Assembly: GCA_964016885.1 (NCBI GenBank)
Contig: OZ024740.1
Coordinates: 12,028,001 to 12,092,000, forward strand
DNA length: 64,000 nt
Direction: 5' to 3'
Origin: Eledone cirrhosa
Taxonomy: Eukaryota
Below are positions 11,409 to 60,107 of the stretch, piece after piece; the stretch's first letter is position 1, and the number at the start of each line of letters is the position of its first letter. Below the pieces are notes generated by a model that ran no database searches, had not been told where the DNA came from, and worked only from the letters and a program-made list of their open reading frames with translations. The translations under genes and the position numbers were made by a program.

Positions 11409-11673
11409 ATTTATCTCAGAAGAGAAGACAGGATGGACATGGTTTTCAAGTCTCGTTATCTGATGACAAATGTACACTTGACACAATGATAGAATTATCA
11501 CATCTCCCATTACCTCATCAGTTGTACCATTACTGTCCTCTACAACCAGGTAATACCACGATGGTGACATACCTAATGACTGGTATGGTGGTATAATCAT
11601 TAATTGCTACAAAGGAAAAAGTGATATTCTAGAAAGTAGCAACTACAGAGGCATCAAACTGCTGGATCAAATT

Positions 11674-19394: not shown

Positions 19395-19429
19395 GTTTAA
19401 AATGGAGTGGAAAAGATGGGAAAGACCAC

Positions 19430-25529: not shown

Positions 25530-28370
25530 ATAGATCCGGGGAACACACAAGCCAGGTAGATTATATCCTTACCAGAAGACGTGACAGAGTGTCTGTTGTA
25601 AACACTAAATCCCTCCCCCATGAAGAATGCACCTCCCAACATAGACTGATAATTAGCGACCTCACAGTCAGGACGAGACGTACTCGACAGCAGAAGAGGA
25701 CTATCCTCAGGAGAAAAATATGGAAGCTAAAGGACCCCACAGCCAGGAATAAATTTCAAAGCATATTACTTGATGCTTTCGACAGTAAGGAAGAACATTT
25801 AGAGTTGGACAATATAGAGGGACAGTGGGAATTTCTGAAAGCAAACCTGCTGATGGCGACAGACGAAGTCTGTGGCTGGAGCAGGCCTGTAGGCAGGAGG
25901 AGAGTAACATGGTGGTGGAACAGTAAGGTGGAGGGGTCAATTAAGGCCAAAAAGCAGGCTTGGAAAGTATGGCGGGATGGGGGAAGTAGAGAAGACTATC
26001 AAGTGGCCAGGAGGGAAGCTAGGAGACAAGTGTACTTAGCCAGAAGGGAAGCTGAGGAAAGAAAGTTCAAGCATGTTCTACAATGCGAGGACCAAAAACG
26101 TGAGGTGTTCAGGATTGCTAGGCAATGCGTCAAGGAAAACCGTGATATTGTTGGGGAGAAGTGTGTACTTAACGATGATGGCATACTTGCCATCACCGAC
26201 GCTGATAAGAAGGTAGCTTGGAAGTGTCACTATGAAAGGCTACTAAATGAGGAGAATAAATGGGAGAAAGACAGTCTCCCCCATATCGACCCAATAGAGG
26301 GACCAGCAGTGTTAGTCGAGGGGAGTATAATAAGTAAGGCAATCAAAGATATGAAGACAGGTAAGGCGGCTGGGCCTTCGGAAATAGTTGCTGAGATGCT
26401 GAAAGCATCTGGCACGGTGGGACACACCATGGTCACCCGCATAGTTAACCAAGTCGTACAGAATGGGGTTGTTCTGAAGGACTGGCATAGCAGCATCATC
26501 GTTAACTGTTATAAGGGTAAAGGAGACGCCCTAGATAGGAGTAACTATAGAGGCATTAAATTAATCGACCAGGTCATGAAGGTCACAGAAAAAGTAATAG
26601 CACAACTAATCAGAGAGAGAATTGACCTAGATGAAATGCAGTTCGGGTTTGTGTCAGGCAAAAGTACCACAGATGCTCTTTTCATTGTACGACAACTACA
26701 GGAGAAGTACCTAGCTAAAGGTAAACCCCTCTACTTAGCTTTTGTCGACTTGGAGAAAGCCTTCGACAGAGTCCCCCACTCCATTATCTGGTGGGCTCTT
26801 AGAAAACTAGGCGTTGACGAATGGCTTGTGAGAGCTATACAAGCCATGTATAAAGAAACAGTCAGCAAGGTTAGAATTAACAACGAATATAGTGAAGAGT
26901 TTAGCGTAAAAGTTGGCGTCCATCAGGGCTCTGTTCTCAGCCCCCTACTATTTATTATTGCCCTTCAGGCTATAACAGAGGAGTTCAAGACCGGCTGCCC
27001 ATGGGAACTCCTATACGCAGACGACCTGACACTCATAGCGGAATCAATGGCCGAGCTAGAGAAGAAATTCCAAACATGGAAGCACGGCCTAGAATCAAAA
27101 GGACTTAAAATTAACCTGGCTAAGACTAAAGTTCTAGTTTGTAGGAAAGAAAATAAGGCGGCGGTCCCTTCTGGGAAATGGTCGTGCTCGGTGTGTAGGA
27201 AAGGCGTAGGTAGAAACTCCATTTTATGTCCTAAATGCAAAGTATGGGTGCATAAAAGATGTAGTGGGATCACAGGTAAGCTAACTAAGAACATAGATTT
27301 TACATGTGGCCAGTGCTCTGGTGCAATAAGTAGCAGCAAGTGCCCACAAAATACTAGCTCTTTCAATTTCGCAGAGGGTTCTATAGAAATAGTGGACAGC
27401 TTCCGTTACCTGGGCGATAAAATCAGCAGTGGGGGAGGGTGCTCTGAAAGTACAGTAGCTAGAGTCAGAACTGGTTGGAAAAAGTTCAGAGAGCTTATAC
27501 CACTATTAGCTGCTAAAGGGTTCTCCCTAAAAATGAAAGGCAGGTTGTACGATGCCTGCATACGAACAGCAATGTTGCATGGCAGTGAGACCTGGGCATT
27601 GTGTGCAGAGGATATATGCAGACTAGAGAGGAACGAAGCTTGCATCCTCCGCTGGATGTGTAACAGTAATATACGTGAACGGCAAAGCATAAACGAACTA
27701 AGGAAAAAATTAGAAATAAGAGGGATCAGATATTGTTTACTCGAGAGAAGGCTACGTTGGTATGGACACGTGATGCGCATGAAAGTCGATAGCTGTATAA
27801 CAAAGTGCAGGGCAATAAAGATAGACGGTAACCACGGAATAGGCAGACCTAGAAAAACCTGGGATGAGCTGATAAACTCCGACCTCACACACTTACACCT
27901 CTCCAAGACAATGTCACTGGACCGAGACCTTTGGCGGTACTCAGTAACAGAGAAGACCCGCCTTACCTAAATACATAGTAAAACCTACTACAGCCAGTAG
28001 GCATCTCTAACAAAATACCCCCCCGTCCCACCACCCCCACCCCCACCCCATCCACACCACCCCGTTCTATGTAAAGTTATGTTGGTGCCACACCATCCAG
28101 GCCGAAACAAATGAGATCGTGTAGGTGTCACGACAAAAAAACACACAGTCCACGCTGTAATGTGGCCGTGTAGGCAACACGGTAAAAACCTCCCAGACCC
28201 ACACTGTAAATGTGGTTGGTGTTAGGAAGGGCATCCAACTGTAGAAAACCTGCCAGACAGTCCTATGCGAGCAAGACAATCACTCTTGCCTCAAGTGGGA
28301 ATACCCCCGTCCAAACCCATGCAAGCGTGGAACACGGACGTTAAACATTGATGATGATGATGATGATGAT
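25530..28370 (+). mobile_element. 5'-truncated RTE-clade LINE with 3'UTR and (GAT)n tail
   Basis: Starts within the endonuclease C-terminus (SQVDYIL...SQHRLII) directly after (TA)n and ends gttaaacattgatgatgatgat. Confidence 0.92.
25589..27970 (+). CDS. RTE ORF remnant: reverse transcriptase with a PHD finger (uninterrupted frame, N-terminally truncated)
   Basis: NYRGIKL, QFGF, FVDLEKAFDRV, HQGSVLSP, YADD; C4HC3 pattern CSVC..ILCPKCKVWVHKRC..FTCGQC; RRLRWYGHVMRM, GRPRKTW. Confidence 0.9.
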   Translation: MSVVNTKSLPHEECTSQHRLIISDLTVRTRRTRQQKRTILRRKIWKLKDPTARNKFQSILLDAFDSKEEHLELDNIEGQWEFLKANLLMATDEVCGWSRPVGRRRVTWWWNSKVEGSIKAKKQAWKVWRDGGSREDYQVARREARRQVYLARREAEERKFKHVLQCEDQKREVFRIARQCVKENRDIVGEKCVLNDDGILAITDADKKVAWKCHYERLLNEENKWEKDSLPHIDPIEGPAVLVEGSIISKAIKDMKTGKAAGPSEIVAEMLKASGTVGHTMVTRIVNQVVQNGVVLKDWHSSIIVNCYKGKGDALDRSNYRGIKLIDQVMKVTEKVIAQLIRERIDLDEMQFGFVSGKSTTDALFIVRQLQEKYLAKGKPLYLAFVDLEKAFDRVPHSIIWWALRKLGVDEWLVRAIQAMYKETVSKVRINNEYSEEFSVKVGVHQGSVLSPLLFIIALQAITEEFKTGCPWELLYADDLTLIAESMAELEKKFQTWKHGLESKGLKINLAKTKVLVCRKENKAAVPSGKWSCSVCRKGVGRNSILCPKCKVWVHKRCSGITGKLTKNIDFTCGQCSGAISSSKCPQNTSSFNFAEGSIEIVDSFRYLGDKISSGGGCSESTVARVRTGWKKFRELIPLLAAKGFSLKMKGRLYDACIRTAMLHGSETWALCAEDICRLERNEACILRWMCNSNIRERQSINELRKKLEIRGIRYCLLERRLRWYGHVMRMKVDSCITKCRAIKIDGNHGIGRPRKTWDELINSDLTHLHLSKTMSLDRDLWRYSVTEKTRLT

Positions 28371-28371
28371 A

Positions 28372-28670
28372 TATGGCTTAGTGGTTAGAGCATTGGCCTT
28401 GCAATTGAAAGGTTGTGAGTTCAATTCTCAGACCGGGTGATGCGTTGTTTCCTTGAGCAAGACACTTTATTTCACATTGGTCCAGTTTACTCAGCTGTAG
28501 AAATTCCACTGCAAAGCGCCCGTGGAGGTGCCACGGCAAAAAAGCACCCACCCTCACTGTAAATGAGGTTGGTGTTAGGAAGGGAATCCAGCTGTAGAAA
28601 TCAAGCCAGAATCAGTTCCTGTCCCACCCTTGCAAGCAGGGAAAAGCGGATGTAAAATGATGATGATGAT
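28372..28670 (+). mobile_element. tRNA-derived SINE carrying the RTE 3' tail
   Basis: A box TGGCTTAGTGG, B box GAGTTCAATTC, central ccttgagcaagacact, then the tail shared with the RTE 3'UTR and (GAT)n. Confidence 0.8.
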
Positions 28671-28686
28671 ATATACATATATATAT

Positions 28687-29374
28687 GTAATAGTAATATA
28701 CGTGAACAGCAAAGCATAAACGAACTAAGGGAGAAATTAGGAATAAGATGGATCAGATGTTGTTTACTTGAGAGAAGACTACGTTGGTACGGTCACGTGA
28801 TGCGCATGAAAGACGACAGCTGTATAAAAAAGTGCAGAGCGATAAAAATAGACGGTAGCCACGGAGTAGGCAGACCCAGAAAAACCTGGGACGACTTGAT
28901 AAATTCCGACCTCACACACTTACACCTCTCCAAGACAATGTCACTGGACCGAGACCTTTGGCAGTACTCAGTAATAGAGAAGACCCGCCTTACCTAAATA
29001 CAAAGCAAAACCTACTACAGTCAGTAAGCACCTCTAACAAAATACACCCTCGTCCCACTACCCCCACACCATCCACACCACCCCCTTAAATGTAAAGTTA
29101 TGTTGGTACCACAACATCCAGTCCGAAATAAATGAGGTTGTGTAGGTGTCACGACAAAAACACACAGTCCACGCTGTAATGTGGCCGTGTAGGCAACACG
29201 GTAAAAACCTCCCAGCCCCACACTGTAAATGTGGTTGGTGTTAGGAAGGGCATCCAGCTGTAGAAAACCCGCCAGACAGTCCTATGCGAGCAAAACAACC
29301 ACTCTTGCCTCAAGTGGGAAAACTCCCGTCCAAACCCATGCAAGCGTGGAACACGGACGTTAAACGAAGATGAT
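28687..29374 (+). mobile_element. Second RTE 3' fragment
   Basis: Highly similar to ~27660-28355; the ORF end MRMKDDSCIKKCRAIK...EKTRLT is near-identical. Confidence 0.92.
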
Positions 29375-29384
29375 GTGTGTGTGA

Positions 29385-29640
29385 GTGATGGCTGCAGCGT
29401 GATTTCGAAGAATGCTATCACTTGATACATAAGCATGAGCAGCAGAGACATGGGTTTTTAGTCCTGCTACGGACTTGCAATGGGGGCCTCTCACAGTAGG
29501 TGTTACGGTCCTGGTTTGGTGCACTTGCAAATGACGTTTCAGTTCACCAACTGTGGTACACTCTTTTCCACACTCCCCACAAACAATGTACAGTTGACAG
29601 TGTCCCCTGTACATGGCTTCTCAGATGACTTCCAAAAGCA
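29385..29640 (-). mobile_element. 3' end of a BovB-like RTE LINE with C2H2 finger remnants
   Basis: CGECGKECTTVGELKRHLQVH and CKSVAGLKTHVSAAH, followed by the tail ttcttcgaaatcacgctgcagccatc. Confidence 0.5.
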
Positions 29641-29924
29641 GCCACATTCTTTATATATATATATATATGCAGAATGGAATGAATATATTGAAACAAAGTG
29701 AGGTTTCACATTAAGGGCTTTATTGATTATACACAGTTACACCATTTCACAGATGGGTAACTCAGGATCTATATAAATGTTATATAGATGCTGCTCATCA
29801 GATTTTTTAATCAAACAAAGCCAAAATCTCATGTAGGTGACTCGACAAAAACTCCCAACCCACACTGTAAAGTGGTTGTGTAGATGTCACGATAAAAAGC
29901 ACCTAGTACACACTGTGAATGTGG

Positions 29925-32900
29925 TTGATGTATTTTACCATGACACCAGCGCTAATACTTTACAGTGTGGACTGGGTGTATTTTACCATGACACTAGCAC
30001 TAATACTATACAGTGTGGACTGGGTGTATTTTACCATGACACCAGTACTAATACTATACAGTGTGGACTGGGTGTATTTTACCATGACACCAGCACTAAT
30101 ACTTTATATTGTGGACTGGCTGTATTTTACCATGACACCAGCACTAATACTATACAGTGTGGACTGGGTGTATTTTACCATGACACCAGCACTAATACTG
30201 TACAATGTGGACTGGGTGTATTTTACCATGACACCAGCACTAATACTATACAGTGTGGACTGGGTGTATTTTACCATGACACCAGCACTAATACTTTACA
30301 GTGTGGACTGGGTGTATTTTACCATGACACCAGCACTAATACTTTACAGTGTGGACTGGGTGTATTTTACCATGACACCAGCACTAATACTTTACAGTGT
30401 GGACTGGGTGTATTTTACCATGACACCAGCACTAATACTTTACAGTGTGGACTGGGTGTATTTTACCATGACACCAGCACTAATACTATATAGTGTGGAC
30501 TGGCTGTATTTTACCATGACACCAGCACTAATACTTTACAGTGTGGACTGGGTGTATTTTACCATGACACTAGCACTAATACTATACAGTGTGGACTGGG
30601 TGTATTTTACCATGACACCAGTACTAATACTATACAGTGTGGACTGGGTGTATTTTACCATGACACTAGCACTAATACTATACAGTGTGGACTGGGTGTA
30701 TTTTACCATGACACCAGTACTAATACTATACAGTGTGGACTGGGTGTATTTTACCATGACACTAGCACTAATACTATACAGTGTGGACTGGGTGTATTTT
30801 ACCATGACACCAGTACTAATACTTTACAGTGTGGACTGGGTGTATTTTACCATGACACCGGCACTAATACTATACAGTGTGGACTGGGTGTATTTTACCA
30901 TGACACCAGCACTAATACTATACAGTGTGGCCTGGGTGTATTTTACCATGACACCAGCACTAATACTATACAGTGTGGACTGGGTGTATTTTACCATGAC
31001 ACCAGCACTAATACTGTACAATGTGGACTGGGTGTATTTTATCATGACACCAGCACTAATACTTTACAGTGTGGACTGGGTGTATTTTACCATGACACCA
31101 GCACTAATACTATACAGTGTGGACTGGGTGTATTTTACCAGGACACCAGCACTAATACTGTACAATGTGGACTGGGTGTATTTTACCATGACACCAGCAC
31201 TAATACTATACAGTGTGGACTGGGTGTATTTTACCATGACACCAGCACTAATACTTTACATTGTGGACTGGGTGTATTTTACCATGACACCAGCACTAAT
31301 ACTTTACAGTGTGGACTGGGTGAATTTTACCATGACACCAGCACTAATACTGTACGATGTGGACTGGGTGTATTTTACAATGACACCAGCACTAATACTT
31401 TATAGTGTGGACTGTGTGTATTTTACCATGACACCAGCACTAATACTTTACAGTGTGGTCTGGGTGTATTTTACCATGACACCAGCACTAATACTGTACG
31501 ATGTGGACTGGGTGTATTTTACCATGACACCAGTACTATTACTATACAGTGTGGACTGGGTGTATTTTACCATGACACCAGCACTAATACTATACAGTGT
31601 GGACTGGGTGTATTTTACCAAGACACCGGCACTAATACTTTACAGTGTGGACTGGGTGTATTTTACCATGACACCAGCACTAATACTTTACAGTGTGGAT
31701 TGGGTGTATTTTACCATGACACAAGCACTAATACTATACAGTGTGGACTGGGTGTATTTTACCATGACACCGGCACTAATACTTTACAGTGTGGACTGGG
31801 GGTATTTTACCATGACACCAGTACTAATACTTTACAGTGTGGACTGGGTGTATTTTACCATGACACCAGTACTAATACTATACAGTGTGGACTGGGTGTA
31901 TTTTACCATGACACCAGCACTAATACTATACAGTGTGGACTGGGTGGATTTTACCATGACACCAGCACTAATATTTTACAGTGTGGACTGGGTGTATTTT
32001 ACCATGACACCAGGACTAATACTTTACAGTGTGGACTGGGTGTATTTTACCATGACACCAGCACTAATACTTTACAGTGTGGACTGGGTGTATTTTACCA
32101 TGACACCAGCACTAATACTTTACAGTGTGGACTGGGTGTATTTTACCATGACACCAGCACTAATACTTTACAGTGTGGACTGGGTGTATTTTACCATGAC
32201 ATCAGCACTAATACTTTACAGTGTGGACTGGGTGTATTTTACCATGACACCAGCACTAATACTTTACAGTGTGGACTGGGTGTATTTTACCATGACACCA
32301 GCACTAATACTTTACAGTGTGGACTGGGTGTATTTTACCATGACACCAGCACTAATACTTTATAGTGTGGACTGGATGTATTTTACCATGACACCAGCAC
32401 TAATACTTTACAGTGTGGACTGGGTGTATTTTACCATGACACCAGCACTAATACTATACAGTGTGGACTGTGTGTATTTTATCATGACACCAGCACTGAT
32501 ACTTTGCAGTGTGGACTGGGTATATTTTACCATGACACCAGCACTAATACTTTACACGGTGGACTGGGTATATTTTACCATGACACCAGTACTAATGCTT
32601 TACAGTGTGGACTGGGTGTATTTTATCATGACACCAGCACTAATACTATACAATGTGGACTGGGTGTATTTTACCATGACACCAGTACTAATACTTTACA
32701 GTGTGCACTGTGTGTATTTTACCATGACACCAGCGCTAATACTATACAGTGGGGACTGAGTGTATTTTACCATGACACCAGCGCTAATACTTTACTGTGT
32801 GGACTGGGTATATTTTACCATGACACCAGTACTAATACTTTACAGTGTGGACTGGGTGTATTTTACCATGACACCTGTACTAATACTATACAGTGTGTGC

Positions 32901-35900
32901 TGGGTATATTTTACCATGACACCAGTACTAATACTTTACAGTGTGGACTGGGTGTATTTTACCATGACACCAGCACTAATACTTTACAGTGTGGACTGGC
33001 TGTATTTTACCATGACACCAGCACTAATACTATACAGTGTGGACTGGGTGTATTTTACCATGACACCAGCACTAATACTTTACAGTGTGGGCTGGGTGTA
33101 TTTTATCATGACATCAGCACTAATACTATACAATGTGGACTGGGTGTATTTTACCATGTCACCAGCACTAATACTATACAGTGTGGGCTGGGTGTATAGT
33201 GTGGACTGGGTGTATTTTACCATGACACCAGCACTAATATATACAGTGTGGACTGGGTGTATTTTACCATGAGACCAGCACTAATACTATACAGTGTGGA
33301 CTGGGTGTATTTTACCATGACACCAGCACTAATACTTTACAGTGTGGACTGGGTGTATTTTACCATGACACCAGCACTAATACTTTACAGTGTGGACTGG
33401 GTGTATTTTACCATGACACCAGCACTAATACTTTACAGTGTGGTCTGGGTGTATTTTACCATGACACCAGCACTAATACTTTACAGTGTGGACTGGGTGT
33501 ATTTTACCATGACACCAGCACTAATACTTTACAGTGTGGTCTGGGTGTATTTTACCATGACACCAGCACTAATACTATACATTGTGGACTGGGTGTATTT
33601 CACCATGACACCAGCACTAATACTTTACAGTGTGGATTGGGTGTATTTTACCATGACACCAGCACTAATACTATACAGTGTGGACTGGGTGTATTTTACC
33701 ATGACACCAGCACTAATACTTTACAGTGTGGACTGGGTGTATTTTAGCATGACACCAGCACTAATACTTTACAGTGTGGACTGGGTGTATTTTACCAGGA
33801 AGCCAGCACTAATACTATACAGTGTGGACTGGGCTTATTTTACCATGACACCAGCACTAATACTATACTGTGTTGACTGGGTGTATTTTACCATGACACC
33901 AGCACTAATACTATACAATGTGGACTGGGTGTATTTTACCATGACACCAGCACTAATACTTTACAGTGTGGACTGGGTGTATTTTACCATGACACCAGCA
34001 CTAATACTATACAATGTGGACTGGGTGTATTTTACCATGACACCAGCACTAATAATATACAGTGTGGACTGGGTGTATTTTACCATGACACCGGCACTAA
34101 TACTTTACAGTGTGGAATGGGTGTATTTTACCATGACACCAGTACTAATACTTTACAGTGTGGACTGGGTGTATTTTACCATGACACCAGTACTAATACT
34201 ATACAGTGTGGACTGGGTGTATTTTACCATGACACCAGCACTGATACTATACAGTGTGGACAGGGTGTATTTTACCATGACACCAGCACTAATACTTTAC
34301 AGTGTGGACTGGGTGTATTTTACCATGACACCAGTACTAATACTTTACAGTGTGGACTGGGTGTATTTTACCATGACACCAGTACTAATACTATACAGTG
34401 TGGACTGGGTGTATTTTACCATGACACCAGCACTGATACTATACAGTGTGGACAGGGTGTATTTTACCATGACACCAGCACTAATACTTTACAGTGTGGA
34501 CTGGGTGTATTTTATCATGACACCAGCACTAATACTTTACAGTGTGGACTGGGTGTATTTTACCATGACACCAGCACTAATACTATACAGTGTGGACTGG
34601 ATGTATTTTACCATGACACCAGCACTCATACTATACAATCTGGACTGGGTGTATTTTACAATGACACCAGCACTAATACTATACAGTGTGGACTGGGTGT
34701 ATTTTATCATGACATCAGCACTTGTACTTTACAGTGTGGACTGGGTGTATTTTAACATGACACCAGCACTAATACTATGCAGTGTGGACTGTGTGTATTT
34801 TATCATGACACCAGCACTGATACTTTGCAGTGTGGACTGGGTATATTTTACCATGACACCAGCACTAATATTTTACAGTGTGGACTGGGTGTATTTTACC
34901 ATGACACCAGCACTAATAATATACAATGTGGACTGGGTGTATTTTACCATGACACCAGCACTAATACTTTGCAGTGTGGAATGGGTGTATTTTACCATGA
35001 CACCAGCACTAATACTTTACAGTGTGGACTGGGTATATTTTACCATGACACCAGTACTAATGCTTTACAGTGTGGACTGGGTGTATTTTATCATGACACC
35101 AGCACTAATACTATACAATGTGGACTGGGTGTATTTTACCATGACACCAGTACTAATACTTTACAGTGTGGACTGTGTGTATTTTACCATGACACCAGCG
35201 CTAATACTATACAGTGTGGACTGGGTGTATTTTACCATGACACCAGCGCTAATACTTTACAGTGTGGACTGGGTATATTTTACCATGACACCAGTACTAA
35301 TACTTTACAGTGTGGACTGGCTGTATTTTACCATGACACCAGCACTAATACTATACAGTGTGGACTGGGTGTATTTTACCATGACACCAGCACTAATACT
35401 TTACAGTGTGGGCTGGGTGTATAGTGTGGACTGGGTGTATTTTAACATGACACCAGAACTAATACTTTACAGTGTGGACTGGGTGTATTTTACCATGAGA
35501 CCAGCACTAATACTATACAGTGTGGACTGGGTGTATTTTACCATGACACCAGCACTAATACTTTACAGTGTGGACTGGGTGTATTTTACCATGACACCAG
35601 CACTAATACTTTACAGTGTCGACTGGGTGTATTTTACCATGACACCAGCACTAATACTATACATTGTGGACTGGGTGTATTTTACCATGACACCAGCACT
35701 AATACCTAACAGTGTGGACTGGGTGTATTTTACCATGACACCACCACTAATACTATACAGCGTGGACTGGGTGTATTTTACCATGACACCAGCACTAATA
35801 CTTTACAGTGTGGACTGGGTGTATTTTACCATGACACCAGCACTAATACTTTACAGTGTGGACTGGGTGTATTTTACCATGACACCAGCACTAATACTTT

Positions 35901-38900
35901 ACAGTGTGGACTGGGTGTATTTTACCAGGAACCCAGCACTAATACTATACAGTGTGGACTGGGTTTATTTTACCATGACACCAGCACTAATACTATACTG
36001 TGTTGACTGGGTGTATTTTAACATGACACCAGCACTAATACTATACAACATGGACTGGGTGTATTTTACCATGACACCAGCACTAATACTATACAGTCTG
36101 GACTGGGTGTATTTTACCATGACACCAGCACTAATACTTTACAGTGTGGGCTGGGTGTATTTTATCATGACACCAGCACTAATACTATACAATGTGGACT
36201 GGGTGTATTTTATCATGACACCAGCACTAATACTTTACAGTGTGGACAGGGTGTATTTTACCATGACACCAGCACTAATACTTTACAGTGTGGACTGGGT
36301 GTATTTGACCATGACACCAACACTAATACTTTACAGTGTGGACTGGGTGTATTTTACCATGACACTAGCACTAATACTATACATCGTGAACTGGGTGTAT
36401 TTTACCATGACACCAGCACTAATACTTTACAGTGTGGACTGGGTGTATTTTACCAGGAAACCAGCACTAATACTATACAGTGTGGACTGGGTTTATTTTA
36501 CCATGACACCAGCACTAATACTATACTGTGTTGACTGGGTGTATTTTACCATGACACCAGCACTAATACTATACAATGTGGACTGGGTGTATTTTACCAT
36601 GACACCAGCACTAATACTATACAGTGTGGACTGGGTGTATTTTACCATGACACCAGCACTAATACTTTACAGTGTGGACTGGGTGTATTTTACCATGACA
36701 CCAGCACTAATACTTTACAGTGTGGACTGGGTGTATTTTACCATGACACCAGCACTAATACTTTATAGTGTGGACTGGATGTATTTTACCATGACACCAG
36801 CACTAATACTATACAGTGTGGACTGGGTGTATTTTACCATGACACCAGCACTTGTACTTTACAGTGTGGACTGGGTGTATTTTACCATGACACCAGCACT
36901 AATACTATACAGTGTGGACTGTGTGTATTTTATCATGACACCAGCAATGATACTTTGCAGTGTGGACTGGGTATATTTTACCATGACACCAGCACTAATA
37001 TTTTACAGTGTGGACTGGGTGTATTTTCCCATGACACCAGCACTAATACTATACAGTGTGGAATGGGTGTATTTTACCATGACACCAGCACTAATACTTT
37101 ACAGTGTGGACTGGGTATATTTTACCATGACACCAGTACTAATGCTTTACAGTGTGGACTGGGTGTATTTTATCATGACACCAGCACTAATACTTTACAA
37201 TGTGGACTGGGTGTATTTTACCATGACACCAGCTCTAATACTTTACAATGTGGACTGGGTGTATTTTACCATGACACCAGTACTAATACTTTACAGTGTG
37301 GACTGGGTGTATTTTACCATGACACCAGCGCTAATACTATACAGTGTGGACTGGGTGTATTTTACCATGACACCAGCGCTAATACTATACAGTGTGGACT
37401 GGGTGTATTTTACCATGACACCAGCGCTAATACTATACAGTGTGGACTGGGTGTATTTTACCATGACACCAGCGCTAATACTTTACAGTGTGGACTGGGT
37501 ATACTTTACCATGACACCAGTACTAATACTTTACAGTGTGGACTGGGCTTATTTTACCATGACACCAGCACTAATACTATACTGTGTTGACTGGGTGTAT
37601 TTTACCATGACACCAGCACTAATACTATACAATGTGGACTGGGTGTATTTTACCATGACACCAGCACTAATACTTTACAGTGTGGACTGGGTGTATTTTA
37701 CCATGACACCAGCACTAATACTATACAATGTGGACTGGGTGTATTTTACCATGACACCAGCACTAATAATATACAGTGTGGACTGGGTGTATTTTACCAT
37801 GACACCGGCACTAATACTTTACAGTGTGGAATGGGTGTATTTTACCATGACACCAGTACTAATACTTTACAGTGTGGACTGGGTGTATTTTACCATGACA
37901 CCAGTACTAATACTATACAGTGTGGACTGGGTGTATTTTACCATGACACCAGCACTGATACTATACAGTGTGGACAGGGTGTATTTTACCATGACACCAG
38001 CACTAATACTTTACAGTGTGGACTGGGTGTATTTTACCATGACACCAGTACTAATACTTTACAGTGTGGACTGGGTGTATTTTACCATGACACCAGTACT
38101 AATACTATACAGTGTGGACTGGGTGTATTTTACCATGACACCAGCACTGATACTATACAGTGTGGACAGGGTGTATTTTACCATGACACCAGCACTAATA
38201 CTTTACAGTGTGGACTGGGTGTATTTTATCATGACACCAGCACTAATACTTTACAGTGTGGACTGGGTGTATTTTACCATGACACCAGCACTAATACTAT
38301 ACAGTGTGGACTGGATGTATTTTACCATGACACCAGCACTCATACTATACAATCTGGACTGGGTGTATTTTACAATGACACCAGCACTAATACTATACAG
38401 TGTGGACTGGGTGTATTTTATCATGACATCAGCACTTGTACTTTACAGTGTGGACTGGGTGTATTTTAACATGACACCAGCACTAATACTATGCAGTGTG
38501 GACTGTGTGTATTTTATCATGACACCAGCACTGATACTTTGCAGTGTGGACTGGGTATATTTTACCATGACACCAGCACTAATATTTTACAGTGTGGACT
38601 GGGTGTATTTTACCATGACACCAGCACTAATAATATACAATGTGGACTGGGTGTATTTTACCATGACACCAGCACTAATACTTTGCAGTGTGGAATGGGT
38701 GTATTTTACCATGACACCAGCACTAATACTTTACAGTGTGGACTGGGTATATTTTACCATGACACCAGTACTAATGCTTTACAGTGTGGACTGGGTGTAT
38801 TTTATCATGACACCAGCACTAATACTATACAATGTGGACTGGGTGTATTTTACCATGACACCAGTACTAATACTTTACAGTGTGGACTGTGTGTATTTTA

Positions 38901-44900: not shown

Positions 44901-47900
44901 CGCTAATACTATACAGTGTGGACTGGGTGTATTTTACCATGACACCAGCGCTAATACTTTACAGTGTGGACTGGGTGTATTTTACCATGACACCTGTACT
45001 AATACTATACAGTGTGTGCTGGGTATATTTTACCATGACACCAGCACTAATACTTTACAGTGTGCACTGGCTGTATTTTACCATGACACCAGCACTAATA
45101 CTATACAGTGTGGACTGGGTGTATTTTACCATGACACCAGCACTAATACTTTACAGTGTGGGCTGGGTGTATTTTATCATGACATCAGCACTAATACTAT
45201 ACAGTGTGGACTGGGTTTATTTTACCATGACACCAGTACTAATACTTTACAGTGTGGACTGGGTGTATTTTACCATGACACCAGCACTAATACTTTACAG
45301 TGTGGACTGGGTGTATTTTACCATGACACCAGCACTAATACTTTACAGTGTGGACTGGGTGTATTTTACCATGACACCAGCACTAATACTTTACAGTGTG
45401 GACTGGGTGTATTTTACCATGACACCAACACTAATACTATACAATGTGGACTGGGTGTATTTTACCATGTCACCAGCACTAATACTATACAGTGTGGGCT
45501 GTGTGTATAGTGTGGACTGGGTGTATTTTACCATGACACCAGCACTAATACTTTGCAGTGTGGACTGGGTGTATTTTACCATGAGACCAGCACTAATACT
45601 ATACAGTGTGGACTGGGTGTATTTTACCATGACACCAGCACTAATACTTTACAGTGTGGACTGGGTGTATTTTACCATGACACCAGCACTAATACTTTAC
45701 AGTGTGGACTGGGTGTATTTTACCATGAAACCAGCACTAATACTTTACAGTGTGGACTGGGTGTATTTTACCATGACACCAGCACTAATACTTTACAGTG
45801 TGGGCTGTGTGTAGTTTACCATGACACCAGCACTAATACTATACATTGTGGACTGGGTGTATTTTACCATGACACCAGCACTAATACTTTACAGTGTGGA
45901 CTGGGTGTATTTTACCACGACACCAGCACTAATACTTTACAGTGTGGACTGGGTGTATTTTACCACGACACCAGCACTAATACCATACAGTGTGGACTGG
46001 GTGTATTTTACCATGACACCAGCACTAATACTATACAGTGTGGGCTGGGTGTATTTTACCATGACACCAGCACTAATACTTTACAGTGTGGGCTGGGTGT
46101 ATTTTACCATGACACCAGCACTAATACTTTACAGTGTGGACTGGGTGTATTTTACCATGACACCAGCACTAATACTATACATCGTGGACTGGGTGTATTT
46201 TACCATGACACCAGCACTCATACTTTACAGTGTGGACTGGGTGTATTTTACCAGGAAGCCAGCACTAATACTATACAGTGTGGACTGGGTTTATTTTACC
46301 ATGACACCAGCACTAATACTATACAGTGTGGGCTGGATGTATAGTGTGGACTGGGTGTATTTTAACATGACACCAGCACTAATACTTTACAGTGTGGACT
46401 GGGTGTATTTTACCATGAGACCAGCACTAATACTATACAGTGTGGACTGGGTGTATTTTACCATGACACCGGCACTAATACTTTACAGTGTGGACTGGGT
46501 GTATTTTACCATGACACCAGCACTAATACTTTACAGTTTCGACTGGGTGTATTTTACCATGACACCAGCACTAATACTTTACAGTGTGGACTGGGTGTAT
46601 TTTACCATGACACCAGCACTAATACTTTACAGTGTGGACTGGGTGTATTTTACTATGACACCAGCACTAATACTTTACAGTGTGGACTGGGTGTATTTTA
46701 CCATGACACCAGCACTAATACTTTACAGTGTGGACTGTGTGTAGTTTACCATGACACCAGCACTAATACTATACATTGTGGACTGGGTGTATTTTACCAT
46801 GACACCAGCACTAATACTTTACAGTGTGGACTGGGTGTATTTTACCATGACACCAGCACTAATACTTTACAGTGTGGACTGGGTGTATTTTACCATGACA
46901 CCAGCACTAATACTTTACAGTGTGGACTGTGTGTAGTTTACCATGACACCAGCACTAATACTATACAGTGTGGGCTGGGTGTATAGTGTGGACTGGGTGT
47001 ATTTTAACATGACACCAGCACTAATACTTTACAGTGTGGACTGGGTGTATTTTACCATGAGACCAGCACTAATACTATACAGTGTGGACTGGGTGTATTT
47101 TACCATGACACCAGCACTAATACTTTACAGTGTGGACTGGGTGTATTTTACCATGACACCAGCACTAATACTTTACAGTGTCGACTGGGTGTATTTTACC
47201 ATGACACCAGCACTAATACTTTACAGTGTGGACTGGGTGTATTTTACCATGACACCAGCACTAATACTTTACAGTGTGGACTGGGTGTATTTTACCATGA
47301 CACCAGCACTAATACTTTACAGTGTGGACTGGGTGTATTTTACCATGACACCAGCACTAATACTTTACAGTGTGGACTGGGTGTATTTTACCATGACACC
47401 AGCACTAATACTTTACAGTGTGGACTGGGTGTATTTTACCATGACACCAGCACTAATATTTTATAGTGTGGACTGGATGTATTTTACCATGACACCAGCA
47501 CTCATACTATACAATCTGGACTGGGTGTATTTTACAATGACACCAGCACTAATACTATACAGTGTGGACTGGGTGTATTTTATCATGACATCAGCACTTG
47601 TACTTTACAGTGTGGACTGGGTGTATTTTACCATGACACCAGCACTAATACTATACAGTGTGGACTGGGTGTATTTTACCATGACACCAGTACTAATACT
47701 TTACAGTGTGGACTGGGTGTATTTTACCATGACACCAGCACTAATACTTTATAGTGTGGACTGGATGTATTTTACCATGACACCAGCACTTGTACTTTAC
47801 AGTGTGGACTGGGTGTATTTTACCATGACACCAGCACTAATACTATACAGTGTGGACTGGGTGTATTTTACCATGACACCAGCACTAATACTTTACAGTG

Positions 47901-50900
47901 TGGACTGGGTGTATTTTACCATGACACCAGCACTAATACTTTATAGTGTGGACTGGATGTATTTTACCATGACACCAGCACTAATACTATACAGTGTGGA
48001 CTGGGTTTAGTTTACCATGACACCAGCACTTGTACTTTACAGTGTGGACTGGGTGTATTTTACCATGACACCAGCACTAATACTATACAGTGTGGACTGT
48101 GTGTATTTTATCATGACACCAGCAATGATACTTTGCAGTGTGGACTGGGTATATTTTACCATGACACCAGCACTAATATTTTACAGTGTGGACTGGGTGT
48201 ATTTTCCCATGACACCAGCACTAATACTATACAGTGTGGAATGGGTGTATTTTACCATGACACCAGCACTAATACTTTACAGTGTGGACTGGGTATATTT
48301 TACCATGACACCAGTACTAATGCTTTACAGTGTGGACTGGGTGTATTTTATCATGACACCAGCACTAATACTTTACAATGTGGACTGGGTGTATTTTACC
48401 ATGACACCAGCTCTAATACTTTACAATGTGGACTGGGTGTATTTTACCATGACACCAGTACTAATACTTTACAGTGTGGACTGGGTGTATTTTACCATGA
48501 CACCAGCGCTAATACTATACAGTGTGGACTGGGTGTATTTTACCATGACACCAGCGCTAATACTATACAGTGTGGACTGGGTGTATTTTACCATGACACC
48601 AGCGCTAATACTATACAGTGTGGACTGGGTGTATTTTACCATGACACCAGCGCTAATACTTTACAGTGTGGACTGGGTATACTTTACCATGACACCAGTA
48701 CTAATACTTTACAGTGTGGACTGGGTTTATTTTACCATGACACCTGTACTAATACTATACAGTGTGTGCTGGGTATATTTTACCATGACACCAGTACTAA
48801 TGCTTTACATTGTGGAGTGGGTGTATTTTATCCTGACACCAGCACTAATACTATACAATCTGGACTGGGTGTATTTTACCATGACACCAGTACTAATACT
48901 TTACAGTGTGGACTGTGTGTATTTTACCATGACACCAGCGCTAATACTATACAGTGTGGACTGGGTGTATTTTACCATGACACCAGCGCTAATACTTTAC
49001 AGTGTGGACTGGGTGTATTTTACCATGACACCTGTACTAATACTATACAGTGTGTGCTGGGTATATTTTACCATGACACCAGCACTAATACTTTACAGTG
49101 TGCACTGGCTGTATTTTACCATGACACCAGCACTAATACTATACAGTGTGGACTGGGTGTATTTTACCATGACACCAGCACTAATACTTTACAGTGTGGG
49201 CTGGGTGTATTTTATCATGACATCAGCACTAATACTATACAGTGTGGACTGGGTTTATTTTACCATGACACCAGTACTAATACTTTACAGTGTGGACTGG
49301 GTGTATTTTACCATGACACCAGCACTAATACTTTACAGTGTGGACTGGGTGTATTTTACCATGACACCAGCACTAATACTTTACAGTGTGGACTGGGTGT
49401 ATTTTACCATGACACCAGCACTAATACTTTACAGTGTGGACTGGGTGTATTTTACCATGACACCAACACTAATACTATACAATGTGGACTGGGTGTATTT
49501 TACCATGTCACCAGCACTAATACTATACAGTGTGGGCTGTGTGTATAGTGTGGACTGGGTGTATTTTACCATGACACCAGCACTAATACTTTGCAGTGTG
49601 GACTGGGTGTATTTTACCATGAGACCAGCACTAATACTATACAGTGTGGACTGGGTGTATTTTACCATGACACCAGCACTAATACTTTACAGTGTGGACT
49701 GGGTGTATTTTACCATGACACCAGCACTAATACTTTACAGTGTGGACTGGGTGTATTTTACCATGAAACCAGCACTAATACTTTACAGTGTGGACTGGGT
49801 GTATTTTACCATGACACCAGCACTAATACTTTACAGTGTGGGCTGTGTGTAGTTTACCATGACACCAGCACTAATACTATACATTGTGGACTGGGTGTAT
49901 TTTACCATGACACCAGCACTAATACTTTACAGTGTGGACTGGGTGTATTTTACCACGACACCAGCACTAATACCATACAGTGTGGACTGGGTGTATTTTA
50001 CCATGACACCAGCACTAATACTTTACAGTGTGGACTGGGTGTATTTTACCATGACACCAGCACTAATACTATACAGTGTGGGCTGGGTGTATTTTACCAT
50101 GACACCAGCACTAATACTTTACAGTGTGGGCTGGGTGTATTTTACCATGACACCAGCACTAATACTTTACAGTGTGGACTGGGTGTATTTTACCATGACA
50201 CCAGCACTAATACTATACATCGTGGACTGGGTGTATTTTACCATGACACCAGCACTCATACTTTACAGTGTGGACTGGGTGTATTTTACCAGGAAGCCAG
50301 CACTAATACTATACAGTGTGGACTGGGTTTATTTTACCATGACACCAGCACTAATACTATACAGTGTGGGCTGGATGTATAGTGTGGACTGGGTGTATTT
50401 TAACATGACACCAGCACTAATACTTTACAGTGTGGACTGGGTGTATTTTACCATGAGACCAGCACTAATACTATACAGTGTGGACTGGGTGTATTTTACC
50501 ATGACACCGGCACTAATACTTTACAGTGTGGACTGGGTGTATTTTACCATGACACCAGCACTAATACTTTACAGTTTCGACTGGGTGTATTTTACCATGA
50601 CACCAGCACTAATACTTTACAGTGTGGACTGGGTGTATTTTACCATGACACCAGCACTAATACTTTACAGTGTGGACTGGGTGTATTTTACTATGACACC
50701 AGCACTAATACTTTACAGTGTGGACTGGGTGTATTTTACCATGACACCAGCACTAATACTTTACAGTGTGGACTGTGTGTAGTTTACCATGACACCAGCA
50801 CTAATACTATACATTGTGGACTGGGTGTATTTTACCATGACACCAGCACTAATACTTTACAGTGTGGACTGGGTGTATTTTACCATGACACCAGCACTAA

Positions 50901-53900
50901 TACTTTACAGTGTGGACTGGGTGTATTTTACCATGACACCAGCACTAATACTTTACAGTGTGGACTGTGTGTAGTTTACCATGACACCAGCACTAATACT
51001 ATACAGTGTGGGCTGGGTGTATAGTGTGGACTGGGTGTATTTTAACATGACACCAGCACTAATACTTTACAGTGTGGACTGGGTGTATTTTACCATGAGA
51101 CCAGCACTAATACTATACAGTGTGGACTGGGTGTATTTTACCATGACACCAGCACTAATACTTTACAGTGTGGACTGGGTGTATTTTACCATGACACCAG
51201 CACTAATACTTTACAGTGTCGACTGGGTGTATTTTACCATGACACCAGCACTAATACTTTACAGTGTGGACTGGGTGTATTTTACCATGACACCAGCACT
51301 AATACTTTACAGTGTGGACTGGGTGTATTTTACCATGACACCAGCACTAATACTTTACAGTGTGGACTGGGTGTATTTTACCATGACACCAGCACTAATA
51401 CTTTACAGTGTGGACTGGGTGTATTTTACCATGACACCAGCACTAATACTTTACAGTGTGGACTGGGTGTATTTTACCATGACACCAGCACTAATATTTT
51501 ATAGTGTGGACTGGATGTATTTTACCATGACACCAGCACTCATACTATACAATCTGGACTGGGTGTATTTTACAATGACACCAGCACTAATACTATACAG
51601 TGTGGACTGGGTGTATTTTATCATGACATCAGCACTTGTACTTTACAGTGTGGACTGGGTGTATTTTACCATGACACCAGCACTAATACTATACAGTGTG
51701 GACTGGGTGTATTTTACCATGACACCAGCACTAATACTATACAGTGTGGACGGGTGTATTTTACAATGACACCAGCACTAATACTATACAGTGTGGACTG
51801 GGTGTATTTTACCATGACACCAGCACTCATACTATACAATCTGGACGGGTGTATTTTACAATGACACCAGCACTAATACTATACAGTGTGGAATGGGTGT
51901 ATTTTACCATGACACCAGCACTAATACTTTACAGTGTGGGCTGGGTGTATTTTACCATGACACCAGTACTAATACTATACAGTGTGGACTGGGTGTATTT
52001 TACCATGACACCAGCACTAATACTATACAGTGTGGACTGGGTGTATTTTATCATGACACCAGCGCTAATACCTTACAGTGTGGACTGGGTATATTTTACC
52101 ATGACACCAGTACTAATACTTTACAGTGTGGACTGGGTGTATTTTACCATGACACCAGCACTAATACTATACAGTGTGGACTGGGTGTATTTTACCATGA
52201 CACCAGCACTAATACTATACAGTGTAGACTGGGTGTATTTTACCATGACACCAGCACTAATACTATACAGTGTAGACTGGGTGTATTTTACCATGACACC
52301 AGCACTAATACTATACAGTGTAGACTGGGTGTATTTTACCATGACACCAGCACTAATACTTTACAGTGTAGACTGGGTGTATTTTACCATGACACCAGCA
52401 CTAATACTATACAGTGTAGACTGGGTGTATTTTACCATGACACCAGCACTAATACTATACAGTGTCGACTGGGTGTATTTTACCATGACACCAGCACTAA
52501 TACTTTACAGTGTGGGCTGGGTGTATTTTATCATGACATCAGCACTAATACTATACAGTGTGGACTGGGTGTATTTTACCATGACACCAGTACTAATACT
52601 TTACAGTGTGGACTGGGTGTATTTTACCATGACACCCGCACTAATACTTTACAGTGTGGACTGGGTGTATTTTACCATGACACCAACACTAATACTATAC
52701 AATGTGGACTGGGTGTATTTTACCATGTCACCAGCACTAATACTATACAGTGTGGGCTGTGTGTATAGTGTGGACTGGGTGTATTTTACCATGACACCAG
52801 CACTAATACTTTACAGTGTGGACTGGGTGTATTTTACCATGAGACCAGCACTAATACTATACAGTGTGGACTGGGTGTATTTTACCATGACACCAGCACT
52901 AATACTTTACAGTGTGGACTGGGTGTATTTTACCATGACACCAGCACTAATACTTTACAGTGTGGACTGGGTGTATTTTACCATGACACCAGCACTAATA
53001 CTATACAGTGTGGACTGGGTTTATTTTACCAATACACCAGCACTAATACTATACTGTGTTGACTGGGTGTATTTTACCATGACACCAGCACTAATACTAT
53101 ACAATGTGGACTGGGTGTATTTTACCATGACACCAGCACTAATACTATACAGTGTGGACTGGGTGTATTTTACCATGACACCGGCAGTAATACTTTACAG
53201 TGTGGACTGGGTGTATTTTACCATGACACCAGTACTAATACTTTACAGTGTGAACTGGGTGTATTTTACCATGACACCAGTACTAATACTATACAGTGTG
53301 GACTAGGTGTATTTTACCATGACACCAGCATTAATACTATACAGTGTGGACAGGGTGTATTTTACCATGACACCAGCACTAATACTTTACAGTGTGGACT
53401 GGGTGTATTTTACCATGACACCAGCACTAATATTTTATAGTGTGGACTGGATGTATTTTACCATGACACCAGCACTTATACTATACAATCTGGACTGGGT
53501 GTATTTTACCATGACACCAGCACTAATACTATACAGTGTGGACTGGGTGTATTTTATCATGACACCAGCACTTGTACTTTACAGTGTGGACTGGGTGTAT
53601 TTTACCATGACACCAGCACTAATACTTTACAGTGTGGACTGGGTATATTTTACCATGACACCAGTACTAATGCTTTACAGTGTGGACTGGGTGTATTTTA
53701 CCATGACACCAGCACTAATACTATACAGTGTGGAATGGGTGTATTTTACCATGACACCAGCACTAATACTTTACAGTGTGGACTGGGTGTATTTTACCAT
53801 GACACCAGCGCTAATACTTTACAGTGTATACTGGGTATATTTTACCATGACACCAGCGCTAATGCTTTACAGTGTGGACTGGGTGTATTTTATCATGACA

Positions 53901-56725
53901 CCAGCACTAATACTTTACAGTGTGGACTGGGTGTATTTTACCATGACACCAGCGCTAATACTATACATCGTGGACTGGGTGTATTTTACCATGACACCAG
54001 CACTAATACTATACAGTTTGGACTGGGTATATTTTACCATGACACCAGCACTAATACTATACTGTGTTGACTGGGTGTATTTTACCATGACACCAGCACT
54101 AATACTATACAGTGTGGACTGGGTGTATTTTATCATGACACCAGCACTAATACTATACAATGTGGACTGGGTGTATTTTACCATGACACCAGCACTAATA
54201 CTTTACAGTGTGAACTGGGTGTATTTTACCATGACACCAGCACTAATACTTTACAGTGTGGCCTGGGTGTATTTTACCATGACACTGGCACTAATACTAT
54301 ACAATGTGGACTGGGTGTATTTTACCATGACACCGGCACTAATACTATACAGTGTGGACTGGGTGTATTTTACCATGACACCAGCACTAATACTTTACAG
54401 TGTGGACTGGGTGTATTTTACCATGACACCAGCACTAATACTATACAATGTGGACTGGGTGTATTTTACCATGACACCAGCACTAATACTTTACAGTGTG
54501 GACTGGGTGTATTTTACCATGACACCGGCACTAATACTATACAGTGTGGACTGGGTGTATTTTACCATGACACCAGCACTAATACTTTACAGTGTGGACT
54601 GGGTGTATTTTACCATGACACCGGCACTAATACTATACAGTGTGGACTGGGTGTATTTTACCATGACACCAGCACTAATACTTTACAGTGTGGACTGGGT
54701 ATATTTTACCATGACACCAGCACTGATACTTTACCGTGTGGACTGGGTGTATTTTACCATGACACCTGTACTAATACTATACAGTGTGTGCTGGGTATAT
54801 TTTACCATGACACCAGCATTAATAGTTTACAGTGTGGACTGGGTGTATTTTACCATGACACCAGCACTAATACTATACAGTGTGGACTGGGTGTATTTTA
54901 CCATGACACCACCACTAATACTTTACAGTGTGGACTGGGTGTATTTTACCATGACACAGCACTAATACTATACAATGTGGACTGGCTGTATTTTACCATG
55001 ACACAGCACTAATACTTTACAGTGTGGACTGGGTGTATTTTACCATGACACCAGCACTAATACTATACAATGTGGACTGGCTGTATTTTACCATGACAGC
55101 ACTAATACTTTACAGTGTGGACTGGATGTATTTTACCATGACACCAGCACTAATACTATACAGTGTGGCCTGGGTGTATTTTACCATTACACCAGCACTA
55201 ATACTATACTGTGTTGACTGGGTGTATTTTACCATGACACCAGCACTAATACTATACAGTGTGGACTGGGTGTATTTTACCATGACACCAGCACTAATAC
55301 TATACTGTGTTGACTGGGTGTATTTTACCATGACACTAGCACTAATACTTTACAATGTGGACTGGGTGTATTTTACCATGACACCAGCACTAATACTTTA
55401 CAGTGTGGACTGGGTGTATTTTACCATGACACCAGCACTAATACTATACTGTGTTGACTGGGTGTATTTTACCATGACACCAGCACTAATACTATACTGT
55501 GTTGACTGGGTGTATTTTACCATGACACCAGCACTAATACTTTACAGTGTGGACTGGGTGTATTTTACCATGACACCAGCACTAATACTTTACAGTGTGG
55601 ACTGGGTGTATTTTACCATGACACCAGCACTAATACTATACTGTGTTGACTGGGTGTATTTTACCATGACACCAGCACTAATACTATACTGTGTTGACTG
55701 GGTGTATTTTACCATGACACCAGCACTAATACTTTACAGTGTGGACTGGGTGTATTTTACCATGACACCAGCACTAATACTTTACAGTGTGGACTGGGTG
55801 TATTTTACCATGACACCAGCACTAATACTATACTGTGTTGACTGGGTGTATTTTACCATGACACCAGCACTAATACTATACTGTGTTGACTGGGTGTATT
55901 TTACCATGACACCAGCACTAATACTTTACAGTGTGGACTGGGTGTATTTTACCATGACACCAGCACTAATACTATACTGTGTTGACTGGGTGTATTTTAC
56001 CATGACACTAGCACTAATACTATACTGTGTGGACTGGGTGTATTTTACCATGACACTAGCACTAATACTATACAGTGTGGACTGGGTGTATTTTACCATG
56101 ACACCGGCACTAATACCTTACAATGTGGACTGGCTGTATTTTACCATGACACCAGCACTAATACTATACTGTGTTGACTGGGTGTATTTTACCATGACAC
56201 CAGCACTAATACTTTACAGTGTGGACTGGGTGTATTTTACCATGACACCAGCGCTAATACTATACAGTGTGGACTGGGTGTATTTTACCATGACACCAGC
56301 ACTAATACTATACTGTGTTGACTGGGTGTATTTTACCATGACACTAGCACTAATACTTTACAGTGTGGACTGGGTGTATTTTACCATGACACCGGCACTA
56401 ATACCTTACAATGTGGACTGGCTGTATTTTACCATGACACCAGCACTAATACTATACTGTGTTGACTGGGTGTATTTTACCATGACACCAGCACTAATAC
56501 TTTACAGTGTGGACTGGGTGTATTTTACCATGACACCAGCGCTAATACTATACAGTGTGGACTGGGTGTATTTTACCATGACACCAGCACTAATACTATA
56601 CTGTGTTGACTGGGTGTATTTTACCATGACACTAGCACTAATACTTTACAGTGTGGACTGGGTGTATTTTACCATGACACCGGCACTAATACCTTACAGT
56701 GTGGACTTTGTGTATTTTATATATA
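29925..56725. repeat. 48-bp satellite array (~27 kb, ~560 monomers) with higher-order duplications
   Basis: Unit gtgtggactgggtgtattttaccatgacaccagcactaatact(a/t)taca. Variant strings recur at offsets of 3714, 3426 and 4038 bp. Confidence 0.99.
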
Positions 56726-56921
56726 CCAGCGCAAGTGTTATGTTTCCATGTGGGTAGAGACAGACAGTGATGAGAGTGGCAGGGTGAGAGGATGGTGAAA
56801 GTGTTGCTTGCCATGGAAGAAGGAAAGATGGAGCAAGCGTGTGGGCCATGAAGACAGCTTTGAAGAGAGGTAAAGTAACATGCAGCTCATAATTGTTTGG
56901 GTGTGGTGTCCATATACATTT

Positions 56922-59849: not shown

Positions 59850-60000
59850 TGGAGGAGCCTTTAGTTGTGCCAAGGACATGACATCCTCCCTAGTGCTGGT
59901 GCTTTATATGATAAAGTCACCAAGTACATGCTGTAAAGTGGTTGGTGTTGTAAGGGTATCCAGCTGTAGAAAGCTTGCCAAACAAGGGGCTAGGAGGACT
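59850..60000 (+). mobile_element. Degenerate SINE/RTE tail fragment
   Basis: agtgctggtg...ctgtaaagtggttggtgttgtaagggtatccagctgtagaaa. Confidence 0.65.
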
Positions 60001-60107
60001 CTTCAGTTTGTGTCAAAAGACTCAACTTATCCTTTGCATTCGATATGACCAAATTTAAGCAAAATACAGACCCCTCGACCTGTCTCGGAATTTAGTAGTC
60101 CCGCATC

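What the first reader, a model, noticed from the sequence alone, without database searches (positions are those of the whole stretch)
28119..56725. The 27-kb 48-bp satellite appears amplified from a tandem unit in the RTE LINE/SINE 3' tail
Seen: the reverse complement of the monomer (agtgctggtgtcatggtaaaatacacccagtccacactgtaaagt) matches the tail motif ggtgtcacaacaaaaagcacccagcccacactgtaaa (~11215). It also matches 28525-28563 and the two ~49-bp tandem units in the RTE 3'UTR (28119-28212 and 29140-29232). Inference: a satellite born from a retrotransposon 3'UTR, with its source family lying adjacent. Transcripts of the array could generate RNA antisense to a very abundant LINE/SINE tail, or act as RT-recognition decoys.
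Basis: partly seen in the sequence, partly recalled or inferred. Interest (0 to 1): 0.75.

Follow-up and report, generated by a model that had tools for sequence, protein, structure and literature searches.

The report
Satellite grown from old LINE tail
A 27,000-base run of a 48-base repeat matches a short repeat in the tail of an old, decayed jumping-gene family rather than the younger copies lying beside it, and it likely grew on the spot, one of many such tail-derived arrays in this genome.

Summary
The array is real: 29929-56719, about 555 monomers, 96% alike. Its reverse complement matches the nearby LINE/SINE tail units far above shuffles (0 of 1000), but these are not its source. All 548 in-phase monomers are nearer the 3'UTR unit of an older, decayed RTE-like lineage ('B', 41/48) than the adjacent lineage ('C', 37/48), and a tree puts the monomer with B (98/98). 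Dispersed B copies carry 1-10 such units between an ORF remnant and a tail. Thirty other B-type arrays (up to 25 kb) were examined; 11 still end in that tail. The focal array has no tail and is joined back-to-front to two C units at a GGTG-like microhomology. No monomer is shared with 26 other arrays, so it likely grew here. Antisense or decoy function is untested (no RNA) and fits poorly. Side result: a second, 83-kb, 51-bp array starts in this window inside another LINE-like tail and shares derived variants with an array in an unrelated copy 10 Mb away, suggesting arrays are copied between tails. This scan found LINE-tail satellites before at other loci of this genome. The closest published case is Ogre 3'UTR satellites.

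The parts
29929..56719 (-). 48-bp satellite, about 555 monomers, lineage-B LINE 3'UTR unit in minus orientation; recent block duplications of 3.4-4.0 kb; eleven 66-bp variant units
29829..29928 (+). two forward lineage-C-type units without their tail, joined in inverted orientation to the array at a GGTG-like microhomology
56700..56735 (-). degenerate outermost unit; array's 5' edge, with no lineage-B upstream sequence
25544..27970 (+). 5'-truncated young RTE-like LINE ORF (RT plus PHD finger), lineage C
27971..28370 (+). its 3'UTR: two ~49-bp C-type units (28119-28212), tail, (ATG)n; homologous to the satellite but not its source
28371..28670 (+). SINE-like element (tRNA-like head by eye; ARAGORN finds no tRNA) with one C-type unit and the shared tail
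28683..29375 (+). second, shorter lineage-C LINE 3' fragment with two units (29140-29232); 641/704 identical to the first
11200..11410 (+). dispersed C-type unit plus tail
59850..60105 (+). 3' fragment of a related tail family ('A'), host of the second satellite
60106..64000 (+). start of a 51-bp satellite running 83 kb (about 1,630 copies, to G000:C1:12171058) and ending in the rest of the family-A tail

Best explanation
The array is a head-to-tail run of a 48-bp unit that also occurs in variable number in the 3'UTR of an old, decayed RTE-like LINE lineage (B), and it likely grew at this spot from a short run of such units left by a truncated copy. Shown: the unit's home (ORF remnant, then units, then tail with (ATG)n in dispersed B copies); its assignment to B rather than to the adjacent lineage C; a monomer type private to this locus; kilobase block duplications inside the array. 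Inferred: a 5'-truncated B copy lay tail-to-tail with a C-type copy; the two inverted tails were deleted between short GGTG(T) repeats, giving today's inverted junction; slippage and unequal exchange then amplified a few decayed units to 27 kb. The array is most likely non-functional.
For: Searching with a B ORF-end/UTR-start stretch gave 25 loci; 23 have the unit downstream, 21 have the B tail, and 21 have both a same-strand ORF remnant and units. Dispersed B loci carry 1-10 units (67 loci). Assignment to B: 548 of 548 monomers, 12.8 bits for the consensus; tree 98/98. Of 30 other B-type arrays, 11 end in the B tail at score >=42 against 33 of 580 control windows; each has its own private changes (1-10 from the B consensus for 48-bp arrays). 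Local growth: no exact monomer is shared with 26 other arrays, the nearest being 2-7 differences away; runs of 68, 41, 39 and 38 identical monomers lie at 3.4-7.1 kb lags. Word depth in run X1 divided by the in-window word count is 5.1-5.4, against 5.76 for the single-copy flank. The monomer carries TG at a site where dispersed units show TG 89, CA 37, CG 7, the pattern of CpG decay in a dead copy. The same inverted junction occurs at two other loci, L026 and L289.
Against: The focal array has neither the B tail nor B upstream sequence (scores 14 and 14, background), so a resident B copy is inferred, not seen. 19 of the 30 other arrays also lack a clear tail. At three sites (19, 40, 44) the monomer has the C-type base, so an unsampled intermediate subfamily is possible. 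The exact junction motif is not enriched genome-wide: 4 hits against 2 for the control, and only 1 of the 4 is a real junction. No listed contig bridges the junction with 31 bases on each side. The neighbouring 51-bp pair shows that array sequence can be shared between distant loci.
Confidence: 0.7

Rival explanations
1. The seed units were copied in from another B-type array, by microhomology-mediated repair or circular DNA, at a break in the C-type element at 29829-29928; only the later growth was local.
For: There are no B host flanks, and the junction sits at a microhomology. The two 51-bp arrays share consensus and complex variants although their hosts are only 73% alike. Several arrays on C25, C27, C22, C2 and C1635 that lack a clear tail share exact monomers.
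Against: No donor was found: 0 shared monomers with 26 arrays. The rest of the C tail is not at the far end of the array. The monomers shared among tailless arrays differ from the B consensus at only 2-5 sites and were found with a similar query.
Confidence: 0.2
2. One reading: the array was amplified from the adjacent RTE/SINE family (lineage C).
For: Significant homology; C-type units abut the array; three sites are C-like; lineage C does seed arrays elsewhere, at least 30 kb at C3:226.04 Mb.
Against: 0 of 548 monomers are nearer C; seven diagnostic sites are B-type; tree; true C-derived arrays keep the C unit; the orientation is opposite.
Confidence: 0.04
3. The array is kept as a source of antisense or piRNA against the LINE/SINE tail, or as an RT decoy.
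For: It lies antisense to the adjacent LINE copies and is homologous to a very abundant tail (2,642 and 3,211 first-look candidates).
Against: Longest exact match is 9-14 nt and there are at least 3 mismatches per 25 nt to adjacent tails and to the C and B consensus. The array lacks the terminal tail. The monomer is private to one locus, with no sign of constraint toward the younger lineage.
Confidence: 0.05
4. The length or the inverted junction is an assembly artefact.
For: Perfect multi-kb duplications; no listed contig bridges the junction.
Against: Word depth fits the assembled word count (X1 may be the assembled sample). Junction bins have single-copy-like depth in X1 (3.6-6). The same junction type occurs at two other loci.
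Confidence: 0.05

Closest known systems
Satellites from 3'UTR tandem repeats of Ogre LTR retrotransposons (Lathyrus sativus, PMC7004042, abstract and Discussion read; PisTR-A, listed in PMC6947457 Table 1)
   Same: Short tandem repeats in a retroelement 3'UTR, dispersed by the element, occasionally expand into long arrays; several satellites per genome.
   Different: Here the carrier is a non-LTR LINE in an animal, the unit persists across at least two LINE lineages, and arrays were found on many contigs (two in apparent introns). Chromosomal context such as centromeres was not tested.
LINE-derived satellites: common cetacean satellite (L1), chicken HinfI and Cen repeats (CR1), PROsat (L1) (PMC6947457 Table 1, passage seen; originals not read)
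   Same: Satellite monomer derived from a LINE.
   Different: The table gives no case from an RTE LINE. Here the unit is already tandem in the element and many separate arrays with private changes exist.
Rsp-like spreading into 1.688 clusters in Drosophila simulans (PMC7403614, abstract only)
   Same: Satellite moving to new loci through short homology; closest model for the 51-bp pair and for the first rival.
   Different: The landing sites there are older satellite clusters; here they would be dispersed LINE tails, in exact register.
VNTR composite retrotransposons SVA/LAVA (PMC4432496, search listing only)
   Same: Retroposon with an internal VNTR.
   Different: Non-autonomous composites with a central VNTR; here the VNTR is in the 3'UTR of the LINE itself and reaches tens of kb.
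RTE-2_OV of Octopus vulgaris (PMC9115989, passages and section 6 read)
   Same: RTE-clade LINE of an octopus.
   Different: It has a C2H2 finger and a 3'UTR made mostly of microsatellite; the element here has a PHD finger and a structured 3'UTR with the 48-bp unit. Sequences were not compared.

Membership tests
Satellite DNA (long tandem array) | long homogeneous head-to-tail array | tested here: met
   26.8 kb, 555 monomers, 96.2% identity, block duplications
Retrotransposon-3'UTR-derived satellite (Ogre type) | monomer present as a short tandem repeat in the 3'UTR of dispersed copies | tested here: met
   1-10 units in 67 dispersed B loci; ORF remnant upstream in 21 of 25
Retrotransposon-3'UTR-derived satellite (Ogre type) | intermediate array sizes still attached to element ends | tested here: met
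   11 of 30 arrays (4-524 units) end in the B tail; control 33 of 580
Retrotransposon-3'UTR-derived satellite (Ogre type) | this array still flanked by its host element | tested here: not met
   no B tail or upstream part beside the focal array
Retrotransposon-3'UTR-derived satellite (Ogre type) | carrier is an LTR element (Ogre/Tat) | tested here: not met
   carrier is a LINE; it works like the Ogre case but is not a member
RTE-clade LINE (lineages B, C) | single ORF with AP endonuclease and RT | tested here: inconclusive
   window copy is 5'-truncated (RT and PHD found); best homologues are ~1,050-aa endonuclease-RT(-PHD) proteins at ~50% identity
RTE-clade LINE (lineages B, C) | short tandem-repeat 3' end and 5' truncation | tested here: met
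   (ATG)n ends and variable 5' ends
RTE-clade LINE (lineages B, C) | RT phylogeny within RTE against named clades | not tested
Derived from adjacent lineage C | monomer carries C diagnostic bases | tested here: not met
   0 of 548 nearer C; tree 98/98 with B
piRNA/antisense source locus | transcribed and processed to small RNAs matching active elements | not testable with these tools
   no RNA holder listed

The most novel reading that the evidence does not exclude
LINE tails in this genome are both seeds and landing pads for satellites: arrays born in one dead copy are copied in exact register into unrelated dead copies megabases away, so a satellite spreads through the LINE's dispersed network without retrotransposition. 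The 83-kb and 3.6-kb 51-bp arrays show this directly, and the focal array may have been seeded the same way.
Probability: 0.4. Interest if true: 0.65.

Novelty: new variant of a known kind. Interest (0 to 1): 0.42.

Why it matters
It shows that an animal LINE's 3'UTR repeat can be a long-lived satellite seed. One assembly holds many replicate arrays, from a few units to tens of kb, with datable hosts, which makes questions about satellite birth, growth and spread directly testable. It also warns that the element beside a satellite need not be its parent. The focal array itself is probably inert, and the general process is known from plants.

Tried and rejected
Adjacent RTE/SINE as source: rejected. 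Family B as a tRNA-headed SINE (my first idea): rejected, since upstream lies a LINE ORF remnant. One single spreading satellite family: not supported, since arrays with the ancestral base at site 19 also exist (3,339 of 7,517 motif matches) and arrays have private changes. A conserved hairpin in the unit as RT signal: folding not significant, z -0.18 to -1.72 on four natural stretches; a cruder shuffle gave -3.1 for the B consensus dimer, which I do not rely on. Inversion of 29929-57550 as cause of the junction: the minus-strand tail at 57393-57554 still holds the junction bases and is of the younger type. Junction as a genome-wide hotspot: not enriched. Host gene: 80 of 201 candidate ORF pieces scanned; the only clear hit was a C2H2 finger at 29363-29620, with two weak hits below cut-off, so intronic position is undetermined. 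Coding role: the long open frames are a by-product of a 48-bp period. No RNA holder listed. RAD-seq reads of other individuals were uninformative on the array. A search with the C12 upstream flank found only itself. An ORF for family A was not found. The 39-bp and 41-bp arrays do not match the LINE families tested. No target-site duplication search was run.

Full report
Observation. The array spans 29929-56719: 555 monomers, 536 of 48 bp and eleven of 66 bp, mean 96.2% identity, with runs of up to 68 identical monomers at 3.4-7.1 kb lags. The adjacent ORF (25544-27970) has RT and PHD domains; its best homologues are ~1,050-aa endonuclease-RT proteins at ~50% identity. The genome (G000, 3.0 Gb) looks octopus-like from recall and from earlier scan notes; no call names it.

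Where the unit comes from. A search with three monomers gave 723 first-look candidates, 39 scored, on many contigs at 85-92%. Several of these arrays end in a conserved tail with (ATG)n. Searching with that tail gave dispersed copies with the same unit upstream. Walking upstream reached a decayed LINE ORF end: of 25 loci, 22 have a same-strand ORF remnant (expected, as the query held the ORF end), 23 have the unit downstream, 21 have the tail, and 21 have both ORF and unit. I call this lineage B. The adjacent elements belong to a younger lineage C, whose copies also run ORF, UTR, 48-bp units, tail (L183, L203, L210; 23 of the 30 loci used, 7 overlapping ones dropped). From 172 B units in 67 loci and 175 C units in 22 loci, the monomer differs from B at 7 and from C at 11 of 48 sites. 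All 548 in-phase monomers are nearer B; seven diagnostic sites are B-type and three C-type. A tree of 33 rows (15 B and 12 C rows drawn at random, only 48 columns) puts the monomer with B and all five adjacent units with C at 98/98.

How general. A 26-letter B-type junction motif has 7,517 exact matches against 0 for the control; 3,339 carry the ancestral base at site 19. Of 30 other B-type arrays measured, the largest are 25.3 kb (C1:4.63 Mb), 18.6 kb (C4), 18.4 kb (C1:57.7 Mb), 14.5 kb (C1:31.8 Mb) and 8.9 kb (C25). Eleven end in the B tail at score >=42 (10 of 29 without L033, whose tail was the query), against 33 of 580 control windows; 19 do not. L031 held no array and was replaced by L115; L039 was merged into C12. 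Most were found by likeness to the focal monomer, so the sample is biased. Lineage C has its own arrays, one of at least 30 kb (C3:226.04 Mb, ends not reached) and one of 85 units with tail.

The focal locus. It has no B tail or upstream part. Its 3' end meets two forward C-type units, which lack their tail, at a short G-G/A-T-G-T overlap. L026 and L289 have the same kind of join at the same position, but the exact motif is not enriched (4 against 2; 1 of 4 real). Deletion between short direct repeats at the base of two inverted tails would give this join; that step is inference. No monomer is shared with 26 other arrays. In run X1 three array pieces have depths 804.5, 714.3 and 1155.9 for mean in-window word counts 148, 136 and 227, i.e. 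5.1-5.4 per copy, against 5.76 for the unique flank. This fits one locus holding this monomer at about the assembled length; the tool warns that depth is no copy number, and X1 may be the assembled sample. No listed contig bridges the junction.

A second satellite. At 60106 a 51-bp array begins inside a related tail family (A) and ends 83 kb later, about 1,630 copies, in the remainder of that tail. The segment gave one hit in 21 and two hits in 1 of 27 dispersed A copies, none in 5. A sister array of 70 copies at C1:1.949 Mb sits in register in another A copy. The hosts are 73% identical, no closer than to other copies (means 81% and 76%), with no flank homology beyond one 29-bp hit. Yet the array consensuses are identical and 5 of 51 sites from the family consensus. 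Nine of 39 distinct sister monomers occur in the big array, a four-site variant is in 144 of 1,533 and 4 of 70 units, and 11 of 14 minor variants of the sister are at >=2% in the big array, against 27% of all possible variants. Against this: the longest exact match is only 143 bp, one five-site variant is private to the sister, and 1 of 20 dispersed copies has three of the derived bases. Copying of array sequence between two separately inserted copies is the simplest reading; direction and mechanism are unknown, and no ORF was linked to family A.

Function. No RNA holder was listed, so expression is untested. The match to adjacent tails is poor for small-RNA pairing and folding is not significant. 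I read the array as a by-product.

Literature. The closest case is Ogre 3'UTR satellites (PMC7004042, abstract and Discussion). LINE-derived satellites are listed in PMC6947457 (passages, Table 1); homology-guided spread is in PMC7403614 (abstract); the octopus RTE-2_OV in PMC9115989 (passages, section 6) has a different 3' end; PMC4432496 was seen as a listing only. Searches listed no description of LINE-tail satellites in a cephalopod (listings only; the library lacks most subscription papers). No supplements were read and Repbase/Dfam were not available; either could already hold these repeats. This scan noted the same process at other loci of this genome; those notes are unreviewed and are not independent support.

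Verdict. Observation confirmed; origin from a LINE 3'UTR supported, but from an older lineage than the neighbour; local growth likely; function unsupported. New variant of a known kind, interest 0.42.

Noticed in passing
window 60106-64000 to G000:C1:12171058, and G000:C1:1949052-1952620: 83-kb and 3.6-kb 51-bp arrays inside two separately inserted family-A tails; identical derived consensus and shared multi-site variants although hosts are 73% alike.
   Followed up: yes
G000:C3:226040001-226070000 (L275-L277); C3:221159188-221163271 (L278): Arrays of the lineage-C unit, at least 626 and 85 copies; close to the younger lineage, so better candidates for antisense RNA than the focal array.
   Followed up: partly
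G000:C1:31.83-31.85 Mb (L279-L280); L022:3123-4278: B-type arrays lying just behind what look like coding exons with GT donors (kinase-like and dehydrogenase-like by eye), so probably intronic.
   Followed up: no
L026 (C27:0.547 Mb), L289 (C3:129.76 Mb): Same inverted tail-to-unit junction as at window 29928.
   Followed up: partly
L058 (C23:18.397 Mb); L007:583-1052: Other tandem units from retroposon-like ends: a 143-bp family-A module about six times; a 77-bp unit six times.
   Followed up: no
window 13118-15092; G000:C1:4594004-4618883: 39-bp array (51 copies) and 41-bp array (at least 607 copies); no match to the LINE families tested.
   Followed up: partly
window 29363-29620 (-): C2H2 zinc-finger remnant just below Pfam's cut-off, perhaps the 3' end of another LINE.
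   Followed up: partly
window ~15900-21600 (-): Long non-LTR element with two ORF regions (endonuclease plus RT found by Pfam), broken by frameshifts; clade not tested.
   Followed up: no
L023 and L024 (C11:41.94 and 41.98 Mb): Two short arrays with matching flanks 34 kb apart, a local duplication; L023 shares the focal monomer's private bases at sites 6-7.
   Followed up: partly
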